From assembly GCF_009914755.1 (NCBI RefSeq), contig NC_060927.1: DNA of 64,000 bases. One strand, 5' to 3'. Source of the stretch: the human T2T-CHM13v2.0 reference genome, Homo sapiens. The notes below the pieces were generated by a model. That model was not told the DNA's origin. It saw only the letters and a program-made list of their open reading frames with translations, and made no database searches. Position 1 is the stretch's first letter. The number at the start of each line of letters is the position of its first letter. The position numbers were made by a program, and so were the translations under genes. Below are positions 47,301 to 57,500 of the stretch, in pieces.

Positions 47301-49660
47301 TTAAAACAAAATAACTAACTAAATTGCTGGGACTCTCACTTCTAGCCAAGACCAAGTAACAAAAACCAGATTTACCCACTCACCTAAAATAAAAAGAAAC
47401 AAACTAGGCAGCAAATATGAAATAATGGTTTTTGAAGACACTGGATACCAGGCATCAAAGGACAATGATTCCTAAAAGAGAAGGCACAAATGCAGGGAGC
47501 TGGGAGATTGTCCCAGTTTATTGCCTTGGGAATGTGTCCAAGTTGCAGCACAGAAACGGAACAGAGTAAGCCTGGTGGAGTCTTTGAGCCGAGAGTCTAG
47601 GAAAACCAAACCTTAGGACAGAATTCCAGAGAGGAGAGAGCAGCACAGAAAGAGAGAGAGCTGCAGAAGTTTCCTTAGAATATTCAGCAGAGTAATTATT
47701 AGCACATGAATCTGAGCAAACTACCCAAAACCAAGGGGAAAATCAACAGATAAGGTTAGAGGAAACATTGTCCAGGGTTGGTTGGGAACAATGCCTGGTT
47801 CTATCAATCAGCCAGATTGAAAAAAACTCATAACCTGTGGGACAGTGGGTAGAGTACTCAAAAAGGTCTTGCCTCACTGATGAAGAATAATTAATTCTAA
47901 ATTGAGTACTACTCTGGACCTACCTAAAAAATTATAAAAAACCTGAAAAGATCAAATTATTTCCCAGTCATTTAACTACATCCTAGAACAAACCGCACAA
48001 GGATTTAAAGTAAAACGAAAATACACAATATCAAACAAGGTAAAATTCTGGCATCTAATACAAAATTATTGGGCATGCAAAGAGGAAGGAATACATGACC
48101 ATCATGAGAGTAATTGATCAATTGAAACCAACACAGAACTGACAGAGATGTTATTTTAAATAAGTAAAGACATGTAAGATATTTTTAAAAGACTTGAGCA
48201 TCTAGAAATAAAAACAATGTCTGAGATGAAAAGTACACTAGATGGAATTAACAGTAGATTAAACTACACAGAAGAAAAGATTAATAAACTTAAACTCATA
48301 GAAATAGGAACTATTCAAAATGAAACAGAAAAGAGTCAAAAAGGAAAAATGAAGAGCATTAGTGAGCTGTGAAATAGCCTCAAGTAGCCTAATACATGGG
48401 TAACTGAAGTCCCTAAAAGAAGGGAAGAGGGACAGAAAAAAATATGTTAAGAAATAATGACCAATGACCCACATTTTCCCAAATTTGGTTAAACCACACG
48501 TATAGATGCTTTACTAAGTCCAAGCACAAGAAACATGGAGAAAATTATATCAAAGTGTATTGCTATCAAATAAGTTGAAACCAGTGATAAAGAGGAAATC
48601 TTAAAAGCAGTCAGAGAAAAAGAGACTTAGGAACCATATAGGAACAAAGATAAGGGTGACATCGTATTTCTCACTGGAAACATTGCAGACAAGAAGTGGA
48701 GTAACATCTTAAAATAGGGAAAGTAAAAAAGGTCAGCCTAGAAATCTATGTCCAGCAAAAATATCTTATAAAAAGAAGGAAAAATAAAGATGCTTTCAGA
48801 CATGCAAAAGTTGAAAGAATTCCTTGACAGTAAACCTATACTACCAGAAATGTTAAAGGCAGTTTTTCAGGCAAAAGAAAAATGACACCATATGGATCTA
48901 TCCAACGAAATAGCATGGGAAAAGATTAAGTATAATAGTGTATATGTAAACTTTTTAATTTAAAACTTTTTTTAAAAACAGATAACTGTTTAAACAAAAA
49001 TAACATACTGTGAGATTTATAACATAAAAGCAAAATTTATGAACTATAATATAAAGACTGGAAGAAAAAAATGGAAACATTATTGTAAGGTTCCTATTCT
49101 ATACACAAAGTGGTATAATATCACTGAAGGTAGACTAGTAAATTAAAGATGTATATAATAGCGGGGCAGTTCCAAGATGGCCGAATAGGAACAGCTCCAG
49201 TCTACAGCTCCCAGTGTGAGTGACACAGAAGACAGGTGAGTTCTGCATTTCCAACTGAGCTTTGAAGAGAGTAGTGGTTCTCCCAGCATGGAGTCTGAGA
49301 TCTGAGAACGGACAGACTGCCTACTCAAGTGGGTCCCTGACCCCCGAGTAGCCTAACTCGGAGGCATCCCCCAGTAGGGGCAGACTGACACCCCACACAG
49401 CCGGGTACCCCTCTGAGACGAAGCTTCCAGAGGAACAATCAGGCAGCAACATTTGCTGTTTAGCAATATTCATGGTTCTGCAGCCTCCGCTGCTGATACC
49501 TAGGCAAACAGGGTCTGGAGTGGACCTCCAGCAAACTCCAACAGACCTGCAGCTGAGGGTCCTGACTGTTAGAAGGAAAACTAACAAACAGGACATTTGC
49601 ACCAAAACCCCACCTGTACATCACCATCATCAAAGACCAAAGGTAGATAAAACCACAAAG

Positions 49661-50672
49661 ATGGGGAAAAACACAGCAGAAAAGCTGAAAATTCTAAAAA
49701 TCAGAGCGCGTCTCCCCCTCCGAAGGAACGCAGCTCCTCACCAGCAACAGAACAAAGCTGGATGGAGAATGACTTTGATGAGTTGGGAGAAGAAGGCTTC
49801 AGACGATCAAACTTCTCCAAGCTAAAGGAGGAAGTTCAAACCCACGCAAAGAAGTAAAAAACCTTGAAAAAAGATTAGATGAATGGCTAACTAGAATAAC
49901 CAGTGTAGAGAAGTCCTTAAGTGACCTGATGGAGCTGAAAACCACAGCACAAGAACTATGTGACGAATGCACAAGCTTCAGTAGCCGATTCGATCAACTG
50001 GAAGAAAGGGTATCAGTAATGGAAGATCACATGAATGAAATGAATCAAGAAGTTTAGAGAAAAGAGTAAAAATAAATGACAAAGCCTCGAAGAAATATGG
50101 GACTATGTGAAAAGACCAAATCTACGTCTGATTGGTGTACCTGAAAGTGATGGGGAGAATGGAATGGAGCCACGTTGGAAAACACTCTAAAGGATATTAT
50201 CCAGGAGAACTTCCCCAACCTAGCAAGGCAGGCCAACATTCAAATTCAGGAAATACACAGAACGCCACAAAGATACTCCTCAAGAAGAGCAACTCCAAGA
50301 CACATAATTGTCAGATTCACCAAAGTTGAAATGAAGGAAAAAATATTAAGGGCAGCCAGAGAGAAAGGTCGGGTTACTCACAAAGGGAAGCCCATCAGAC
50401 TAACAGCTGAGCTCTCGGCAGAAACTCTACAAGCCAGAAGAGAGTGGGGGCCAATATTCAACATTCTCAAAGAAAAGAATTTTCAACCCAGAATTTCATA
50501 TGCAGCCAAACTAAGCTTCATAAGCAAAGGAGAAATAAAATCCTTTACAGACAAGCAAATGCTGAGAGATTTTGTCACCACCAGGCCTGCCCTACAAGAG
50601 CTCCTGAAGGAAGCACTAAACATGGAAAGGAACAAGCAGTACCAGCCACTGCAAAAACATGCCAAATTGTAA
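49661..50672 (+). pseudogene. L1 ORF1, frameshifted
   Basis: ATGGGGAAAA start; only the C-terminal 165 aa are open (..IIQENFPNL..ARREWG..QKHAKL*). Confidence 0.9.
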
Positions 50673-54562: not shown

Positions 54563-57500
54563 ACAATGAGAACATTTGGACACAGGAAGGGGAACATCAC
54601 ACACCAGGGCCTGTTGTGGGGTGGGGGGAGGGGGGAGGGATAGCATTAGGAGATATACCTAATGTAAATGACAAGTTAATTGGTGCAGCACACCAACATG
54701 GCACATGTATACATATGTAACCAACCTGCACATTGTACACATGTACCCTAGAACTTAAAGTATAATAATAAAAAAAGATGTATATACCTTAAAGTAACCA
54801 CTAAAATAATAAAAGAACATATACTTAATAATCACTCAAAAGAGATAAAGTGAAACCATTAAAAATATTCCATTATGGTGGCTCATGCCTGTAATCCCAA
54901 CACTTTTGGAGGCCGAGGCGGGCGGATCACAAAGCCAGGAGATTGAGACCATCCTGACCAACATGGTGAAACCCCGTGTCTACTAAAAATACAAAAATTA
55001 GTTGGGTGTGGTGGTGCACGCCTGTAGTCCCAGTTACTCAGGAGGCTGAGGCAAGAGAATCACTTGAACCGGGGAAGTGGAGGTTGCAGTGAGCTGATAT
55101 TATGCCACTGCACTTCAGCCTGGTGACAGAGTGAGAGTCCACCTCAAAAAAAAAAAAAAAAATTCTATTAATTTGAAAGAACCCAGGAAAAAAAGGAAAG
55201 AGAACAAAGACCAGATAAGACAAACAGAAAACAAATAGCAAGATAATAGACTGTATCCTAACTCTATAATTACGTTAATGAAATGAAATAAACATACCAA
55301 TTAAAAAGGCAAACATTGAGTAAAAAAGCAAGAATGAACTATACGCTACATACAAAAACCTTTTTCTTTTTTTGGTGACGGAGTCTCGCTCTGTTACCCA
55401 GGCTGGAGTCCAGTGGCATGATCTCGGCTCACTGCAGCCTCCACCTCCCGGGTTCAAGCGATTTTCCTGCCTCAGCCTCCCAAGTAGCTGGGACTACAGG
55501 CGCCTGCGACCGCGTCTGGCTAATTTTTTGTATTTTAGTAGAGATGGGGTTTCACCATGTTACCCAGGCTGGTCTCAAACTCCTGAGCTCAGGCAATTTG
55601 CCTGCCTCGGCCTCCCAAAGTGCTAGGATTACAGGCGTGAGCCACTGCCTGGCCATAAAAAAAAAAAAACAACTTTTTTTTTTTTTTTTGAGACAATCTT
55701 ACTCTGTCACCCAGGCTAGAGTGCAGTGGCACGATCTCGGCTCACTGCAACCTCTGCTGCCCGGGTTCAGGTGATTCTCCTGCCTCAGCCTCCCAAGTAG
55801 CTGCGATTACAAGCGCCTGCCACCGCACCTGGGTAATTTTTGTATTTTTCGTAGAGACAGGGTTTCACCATCTTGGTCAGGCTGGTCTGGAACTCCTGAC
55901 CTTGTGATCTGTCCACCTCAGCCTCCCAAAGTGCTGGGATTACAGGTGTGAGCCACCATGCCTGGACTAAAAAACTTAAAATATAAAGACATAGGCTGGG
56001 CACCTGTGGCTCACGCCTGTAATCCCAGCACTTTTGGAGGCCGAGGAGGGCGGATCACGAGGTCAGGAGATTGAGACCATCCTGGCTAACACGGTGAAAC
56101 CCCGTCTCTACTAAAAATACAAAAAAATTAGCCGGGCATGGTGGCAGGCACCTGTAGTCCCAGCTACTTGGGAGGCTGAGGCAGGAGAATGGCGTGAACC
56201 TGGGAGGTGGAGCTTGCAGTGAGCCGAGGTCACACCACTGCACTCCAGCCTGGATGACAGAGCGAGACTCCATCTCAAAAAAAAAAAAAAAAAAAAAAAG
56301 AAATATGAAGACACAAATAGGTTAAGAGTGTAAGTATGGAAAAGATATACCCTGCTAACTAACACTAGTCAAAAGAAAGCCAGGATAATTCTACTAATAT
56401 CAGATAAAGTAGATTTTAGAATAAAGAATACATGAATCCACAATTATTATAGTCAAGAGATTTCAATAGCCCTCTCTTATATATACAACAAACAGGCAGA
56501 AAATCTGACATGAACAATACTATCAGCCAACTTGACCTAACTGACATTTATAAAACACTCCACCCAACAACAGCAAAATACACATTTTTGTTCTCAAGTG
56601 TGTACCCAGAACATTTACCAAGATAAACTATATTCTGGGCCATAAAACAAATCTTAAATCGGAAAGGATTCAAGTCATACAAAGTATGTTCACAGACCAC
56701 ACTGAAATTAAATTAGAAGTCAATAACAAAAAGATATTTGGAAAATCTGCTGCTTTAGTTTGTGTTTTTAGAAAAAAAATTTTGAAGGGGATATCTCCAA
56801 GTATTTGGAAAGTAACACTCTTCTAAATAACTCCTGGATCAAGAAGTCATTATATAAAAAAGACACCTGCCGGACACGGTGGCTCACGCCTGTAATCCGT
56901 TTTTTTTTTTTTGTTTTTTGTTTTTTTTTTTTTTTTTTGAGAGGAGTCTTGCTCTGTTGCCCAGACTGGAGTGCAGTGGCGCGATCTCGGCTCACTGCAA
57001 GCTCCACCTCCTGGGTTCACGCCATTCTCCCGCCTCAGCCTCCCGAGTAGCTGAGACTTACAGGCGCCTGCCAACACGCCCGGCTAAATTTTTTGGTATT
57101 TTTTAGCAGAGGGAGGCCGAGGCGGGTGTAATCATTTTTTTCTAAAAACACAAAGGTCAGGAGTTCAAGACCAGCCTGACCAAGATGATGAAAACCCGTC
57201 TCTACGAAAAATACAAAAATTAGTCGGGCGTGGTGGCAGGCGCTTGTAATACCAGCTACTTGGGAGGCTGAGGCAGGAGAATCGCTTGAATCCGGGCGGC
57301 AGATGTTGGAGTGAGCCGAGATCGTGCCACTGCATTCTAGCCTGGGTAACAAAGTGGGACTGTGTCTCAAAAAAAAAAAAAGTTTTTTTTATGGCTGGGC
57401 AGTGGCTCCGCCTGTAATCCTGGGACCACAGGCACCCGCCACTGCACCTGGCTAATTTTTTGTATTTTAGTAGAGACGGGGTTTCACCGTGTTGTCCAGG

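What the first reader, a model, noticed from the sequence alone, without database searches (positions are those of the whole stretch)
49145..54786. LINE-1 retrotransposed from a spliced RNA (SpIRE 97/622)
Seen: the 5' UTR reads ...TTTCCAACTGAG|CTTTGAAGAGAG... at 49259/49260, ~99 nt from the 5' end, in an otherwise end-to-end element of only 5.6 kb with a perfect 13-bp TSD. Established: L1PA reads CTGAG|GTACC at the ~97 donor and GACAG|CTTTGAAGAGAG at the ~622 acceptor, and spliced integrated copies are a described, uncommon class. Consequence: ~525 nt including the antisense promoter and ORF0 are missing, so the copy was probably promoter-crippled on arrival and cannot fire an L1 antisense promoter toward ARF4.
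Basis: partly seen in the sequence, partly recalled or inferred. Interest (0 to 1): 0.72.

Follow-up and report, generated by a model that had tools for sequence, protein, structure and literature searches.

The report
Already-catalogued spliced LINE-1 copy near ARF4
This is a dead human LINE-1 jumping gene that lacks exactly one intron-shaped piece of its promoter, most likely because it was copied from a spliced RNA, and this very copy is already listed in a 2018 paper; the only fresh lead is about two dozen other copies with a different, apparently unlisted splice-like join.

Summary
The L1 at 49145-54786 (13-bp TSD) joins the ~97 donor to the ~622 acceptor. In 21 unspliced relatives the missing piece is 510-534 nt (mode 525), starts GT in 19 of 21 and ends AG in 21 of 21. 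The junction 24-mer occurs 181 times in this genome, and spliced copies do not form one clade. This exact locus is SpIRE(97/622)-31, L1PA5, in Larson et al. 2018. Loss of the ORF0 and antisense-start region is shown by position; any consequence for ARF4 is untested. Side result: about 23-25 older L1s elsewhere carry a different join, from the same donor to an acceptor 217 nt downstream (about 97/313). It is exact in 21 of 22 copies examined, and one copy has lost two GT-AG segments. Young L1s lack that AG in register (15 of 15). It is not among Larson's four classes and I found no paper on it, but two key Belancio papers were unavailable.

The parts
49145..49157 (+). 5' target-site duplication (13 bp)
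   Evidence: Exact repeat with 54774-54786; TSD length 13 and EN site CTTT/A in Larson S1 Table
49158..49160 (+). A few probably untemplated bases between the TSD and the L1 5' end (boundary uncertain by 2-3 nt)
   Evidence: Comparison with 5' ends of relatives; inference
49161..49259 (+). First ~99 nt of the L1 5' UTR, up to the ~97 splice donor
   Evidence: Aligns to relatives up to the base before their GT
49259..49260 (+). 97/622 junction; about 525 nt (GT..AG) absent, including the ORF0 region and the reported antisense start sites
   Evidence: positions of ORF0 (236-452) and antisense starts (386-503) from passages of PMC4730256
49260..49660 (+). Rest of the 5' UTR after the 622 acceptor
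   Evidence: 92-94% identity to relatives; ORF1 ATG at 49661
49661..50672 (+). ORF1 remnant, broken into pieces in different frames
50736..54562 (+). ORF2 remnant, in five stop-to-stop pieces
   Evidence: Pieces 50721-51728, 51859-52782, 52783-53811, 53876-54121, 54122-54562; ATG at 50736
54563..54773 (+). 3' UTR with polypurine tract and short A-rich tail
   Evidence: Sequence
54774..54786 (+). 3' target-site duplication (13 bp)

Best explanation
This is a dead, end-to-end L1PA5-age LINE-1 that lacks exactly the ~525-nt GT-to-AG segment of its 5' UTR, most likely because a full-length L1 transcript was spliced from the 97 donor to the 622 acceptor and then reverse-transcribed into this site. 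SHOWN: the deletion ends, the 13-bp TSD, the recurrence of the same join, and the broken ORFs. INFERRED: spliceosomal removal before insertion, and insertion by target-primed reverse transcription with the transcript's own proteins. FROM LARSON'S L1.3 ASSAYS, not this copy: such a 5' UTR keeps little promoter activity (7-fold against 267-fold over empty vector) and about 7% retrotransposition, so the copy was probably crippled on arrival. It has since collected stops and frameshifts. No function is indicated.
For: Gap ends are GT in 19 of 21 and AG in 21 of 21 unspliced relatives; chance 0.9%. Junction microhomology is only 2 nt in 20 of 21 and 0 in one. The same join is exact in 29 of 29 other loci fetched with the junction query (30 of 40 matches fetched), and the 24-mer has 181 matches against 0 control. 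On 1.85 kb outside the deletion, the spliced label needs 13 changes, at least 4 forced by starred branches, and 0% of 200 bootstrap trees give one; one clade is rejected, p-AU 5e-6. The locus is published as SpIRE(97/622)-31. Promoter and retrotransposition figures are from PMC5860796 Results.
Against: Larson did not detect 97/622 splicing by RT-PCR or northern blot from the L1.3 5' UTR in HeLa cells, so this splice is inferred from genomic copies. Spliced copies are more clustered on the tree than shuffled labels (6 of 500 shuffles as low), with small starred all-spliced clades, so some copies may descend from an already-deleted source. The bootstrap had not converged. Ape and monkey orthologues could not be checked.
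Confidence: 0.9

Rival explanations
1. Second-round copy: the join arose by splicing in an ancestor, and this copy was made from an already-deleted SpIRE transcribed from a host promoter.
For: A SpIRE in RAP1GDS1 is reported to have produced offspring through the host promoter (passages of 10.1101/2025.02.02.635956). Small starred clades of spliced copies exist.
Against: No host exon or transduced sequence sits at the 5' end, only about 3-5 extra nt. The nearest rows to this copy are L052 and L044, which lack the 97/622 join, though without starred support. The spliced promoter supports about 7% activity.
Confidence: 0.07
2. The reverse transcriptase skipped 525 nt by a template jump during insertion, with no splicing.
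For: Such jumps occur in L1: copy L067 has a 3,558-nt deletion whose ends are not GT..AG and sit at an 18-nt, 94% repeat.
Against: Only 2 nt of microhomology at the 97/622 join; the ends are precisely donor and acceptor; the join recurs to the base in unrelated copies.
Confidence: 0.02
3. A genomic deletion after insertion happened to fall on the splice sites.
For: None specific; orthologues untested.
Against: 0.9% chance of GT..AG ends, and it would have to recur at the same two bases in at least 181 loci.
Confidence: 0.01

Closest known systems
SpIRE(97/622)-31 (Larson et al. 2018, PLoS Biol, PMC5860796, S1 Data and S1 Table)
   Same: Same locus: the printed empty-site flanks and filled-site 5' sequence match the window, including the junction; L1PA5, length 5607, TSD 13, PDE12 same orientation.
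   Different: Nothing of substance. T2T rather than hg38 coordinates (offset about 40.4 kb); I count about 3-5 untemplated 5' nt against their 14.
SpIRE97/790, 97/853 and 97/976 classes (Larson 2018; Belancio 2006 and 2008 as cited there)
   Same: Same 97 donor, same proposed route.
   Different: Different acceptors. The 97/313 join seen in passing uses yet another acceptor, upstream of all four listed ones.
RAP1GDS1 L1PA2 SpIRE (bioRxiv 10.1101/2025.02.02.635956; passages seen)
   Same: A 97/622-type SpIRE in the sense orientation inside a gene; this copy lies in the sense orientation within the span of the long PDE12 gene model.
   Different: That copy is reported to have near-full ORFs and offspring; this one has broken ORFs and no known offspring.

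Membership tests
SpIRE97/622 | 5' UTR joined from the G98U99 donor to the A620G621 acceptor | tested here: met
   gap of 510-534 nt, GT 19 of 21, AG 21 of 21 in unspliced relatives
SpIRE97/622 | TPRT hallmarks: TSD of about 6-25 bp, 3' A tract, EN-type site | tested here: met
   13-bp TSD and short A-rich tail; site CTTT/A (consistent)
SpIRE97/622 | Belongs to L1PA1-L1PA6 | tested here: inconclusive
   No subfamily library on hand; 92-94.5% identity to nearest relatives and a UTR of 500+525 nt fit an older L1PA; Larson assigns PA5
SpIRE97/622 | Listed among the published copies | tested here: met
   Clone 31
SpIRE97/622 | Reduced promoter activity | not testable with these tools
   Shown only for the L1.3-based construct
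SpIRE97/622 | Deletion present from the time of insertion (shared by orthologues) | not testable with these tools
   No primate genomes are held for this window (header: no relatives)
SpIRE (general), for the 97/313 copies seen in passing | Precise GT..AG removal, recurring independently | tested here: met
   Exact in 21 of 22; AG at that place in 21 of 21 unspliced relatives; one clade rejected only weakly, p-AU 0.036, 19 copies
SpIRE (general), for the 97/313 copies seen in passing | TSD and A tail | tested here: inconclusive
   11 examined: 9 with the 3' end at the expected distance, 4 with a clear 14-17-bp TSD, 5 with only 7-9-nt low-complexity candidates

The most novel reading that the evidence does not exclude
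The focal copy is known, but its relatives reveal a fifth, extinct SpIRE class: about 23-25 human L1PA4-6-age copies spliced from the 97 donor to an acceptor at about position 313. Young L1s have mutated that acceptor away, so L1.3-based probes and reporters could not find the class. One copy is doubly spliced (97/313 plus about 470/622) and keeps a 155-nt internal exon. The 97/622 class is also undercounted in older subfamilies (181 junction matches against 116 listed).
Probability: 0.6. Interest if true: 0.35.

Novelty: already known. Interest (0 to 1): 0.17.

Why it matters
The focal element adds nothing: it is an entry in a published table and a dead copy with no sign of function. The side result would matter modestly to L1 specialists. 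It would show that SpIREs record splice sites that modern L1 no longer has, give a second case (after 97/790 and 97/853) of 5' UTR evolution switching L1 splicing, and raise the known SpIRE count. Unlike 97/622, the 97/313 copies keep the ORF0 start and the reported antisense start region, so they could serve as natural controls for separating sense from antisense promoter loss.

Tried and rejected
Novelty of the locus: rejected. Single deleted master lineage for 97/622: rejected; rows left out were L031 (duplicate of the focal copy) and L005, L039, L043, L048, L053 (under 1,500 nt shared). Microhomology jump: rejected for 97/622. Relocation of the missing segment nearby: none in 44000-60000. 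A separate 470/622 class: 3 pattern hits at up to 3 mismatches against 1 control; one is L067, one (chr18) showed no L1 5' UTR when fetched, one was not examined; no second doubly spliced copy among 52 matches. A third splice in L067: rejected, the 3,558-nt gap is not GT..AG. L067's own TSD is only a low-complexity ~8-nt candidate inside an Alu-like flank. For the 97/313 clade test L063 (long branch), L067 (second deletion) and L075 (inexact join) were dropped. Belancio 2006 and 2008 could not be read. PMC2896524, PMC7110667 and PMC5174737 passages gave no 313 acceptor. Earlier scan findings were not available. Orthologues and expression could not be examined.

Full report
OBSERVATION. The sequence at 49259/49260 reads CAACTGAG|CTTTGAAGAGAG, and the longest exact repeat flanking the element is 13 bp, at 49145-49157 and 54774-54786. 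Between them lies a + strand L1 of about 5.61 kb: a 500-nt 5' UTR, ORF1 from 49661 in pieces, ORF2 from 50736 in five stop-to-stop pieces, a 3' UTR and a short A-rich tail.

THE GAP. I searched the window's own genome with the stretch after the junction and fetched 30 of 40 matches. One is the focal copy. Of the other 29, 21 are unspliced, with 510-534 nt (11 exactly 525) between the two points; that piece begins GT in 19 of 21 and ends AG in 21 of 21. Two carry a different join (below), one has internal deletions that take out the acceptor, and five lack the first 99 nt. Microhomology at the join is 2 nt in 20 of 21. A random deletion in such a UTR is readable as GT..AG in 0.9% of draws.

RECURRENCE. 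A query across the junction returned 40 matches; of 30 fetched, the 29 besides the focal copy all have the join with zero gap. The junction 24-mer has 181 matches at up to 2 mismatches and the reversed control none. On a tree of 1.85 kb outside the deletion (54 rows; left out: one duplicate and five short rows), the spliced label needs 13 changes, at least 4 forced by starred branches, and one clade is rejected at p-AU 5e-6. Against a purely independent origin: the label is more clustered than shuffles (6 of 500), small all-spliced clades are starred, and the bootstrap had not settled. Part of the clustering may reflect age, since the controls were chosen for likeness to the focal copy.

ALREADY PUBLISHED. 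Larson et al. 2018 (PMC5860796; I read the abstract, Introduction, Results parts 1-2 of 4 plus sections 14 and 16, Discussion part 1 of 2, the BLAT methods, S1 Table whole, and searched S1 Data) list 116 SpIRE97/622 copies. S1 Data has 'Clone 31; PA5; SpIRE(97/622)-31', hg38 chr3:57606726-57612475, whose flanks and 5' sequence match the window. S1 Table gives length 5607, PDE12 same orientation, CTTT/A, TSD 13.

MECHANISM. Most likely a full-length L1PA5 transcript was spliced 97 to 622 and inserted by target-primed reverse transcription. The ends, TSD and recurrence are shown; splicing and cis-mobilisation are inferred. Larson's L1.3 constructs gave 7-fold against 267-fold promoter activity and about 7% retrotransposition without an added promoter. 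They did not detect the 97/622 RNA in HeLa cells.

ARF4. The L1 5' end is 9,441 nt from the annotated ARF4 start and 5,869 nt from the end of ARF4-AS1, and an antisense promoter would point toward ARF4 in its sense. A review places ORF0 at 236-452 and antisense starts at 386-503 (passages of PMC4730256), inside the removed piece. An antisense ATG at donor+355 (about 452) opens 60-87 codons in 5 of 21 relatives, with shifted equivalents in a few more; its likeness to ORF0p is recalled, not tested. So the loss is real by position. Nothing here shows that it matters, and the passages of Larson that I saw report no antisense assay.

SIDE RESULT 1: a 97/313 join. Two 'controls' (L036, L059) join the same donor to a point 217 nt downstream, where 21 of 21 unspliced relatives have YAG after a pyrimidine run. 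A query across this join was spanned by 25 of 43 matches; a 24-mer gave 25 hits at up to 3 mismatches against 1 control, 23 of them shared. That is about 0.5% of 4,530 exact matches to the older-type pre-donor 14-mer. Of 22 copies examined, 21 have the exact join and one has 6 extra nt. Of 11 checked at the 3' end, 9 end at the expected distance and 4 have clear 14-17-bp TSDs. They interleave with unspliced copies (9 changes; one clade rejected only at p-AU 0.036 on 690 nt, three rows dropped). In 15 of 478 young-type L1s sampled, the site is 215 nt from the donor (313 in L1.3 numbering) and reads TTAA rather than TTAG in 15 of 15; 6 of 15 have an AAG one base further on, so an AG is not wholly absent.

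SIDE RESULT 2: a doubly spliced copy. L067 (T2T chr1 about 226.4215 Mb, minus strand) also lacks a second 153-nt segment running from a point that reads AG|GT in 19 of 21 relatives (about 470) to the 622 acceptor, leaving a 155-nt internal exon. It appears unique. Its third, 3,558-nt deletion is not GT..AG and sits at an 18-nt repeat, a useful contrast.

SIDE RESULT 3: undercount. On chr3, by approximate coordinate matching, 5 of 11 junction hits that I could see have no counterpart among Larson's 8 chr3 entries; 81 of the 181 hits were not listed. Their L1.3 probe with a 95% cut-off would be expected to miss older copies.

IN PRINT? Larson's S1 Table has only 97/622, 97/790, 97/853 and 97/976, and a text search found no 311-315 site. 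Paper searches and passages of 10.1101/2025.02.02.635956, PMC2896524, PMC7110667 and PMC5174737 showed none. Belancio 2006 and 2008, which map L1 splice sites, were not held (nothing seen), figures are not held, and the supplements of the 2025 preprint were not examined; any of these may list the site.

VERDICT. The finding is real, correctly interpreted and already known at the level of the single copy. Interest 0.17, most of it owed to the side result, which would be a new variant of a known kind.

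Noticed in passing
L036 (G000:C9:128730188-128730211), L059, L061-L080 and further hits: About 23-25 older L1s with the 97 donor joined to an acceptor 217 nt downstream (about 97/313); exact in 21 of 22 examined; not among the four published SpIRE classes; the acceptor AG is lost in register in 15 of 15 young L1s.
   Followed up: yes
L067 and L093 (G000:C1 about 226419300-226421520, minus strand): A ~2.2-kb L1 with two GT..AG segments removed from the 5' UTR (97/313 and about 470/622) plus a 3,558-nt non-splice deletion from ORF1 to ORF2 at an 18-nt repeat; it sits inside an Alu-like sequence.
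   Followed up: partly
Genome-wide; chr3 hits at G000:C3:29364899, 32260071, 34764520, 133956226, 183285553: 181 matches to the 97/622 junction against 116 published; five chr3 hits have no apparent counterpart in the published list.
   Followed up: partly
window 49161-54773 within the PDE12 gene span (to 98867, +): The element is in the sense orientation inside the long PDE12 gene model; read-through or splicing into it was not examined.
   Followed up: no
window 49745-49762 and 53317-53334: An 18-nt, 94% direct repeat between ORF1 and ORF2 sequence; it is where L067's large deletion falls, so it may be a recurrent deletion point in L1.
   Followed up: partly
L075 (G000:C23:61691480-61692430): A 97/313-like join with 6 extra nt; origin unclear.
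   Followed up: no
L052 (G000:C3:144046652-144050158): The closest row to the focal copy on the tree (unstarred); it keeps the donor but has an 82-nt internal deletion and an 8-nt deletion that removes the 622 acceptor.
   Followed up: partly
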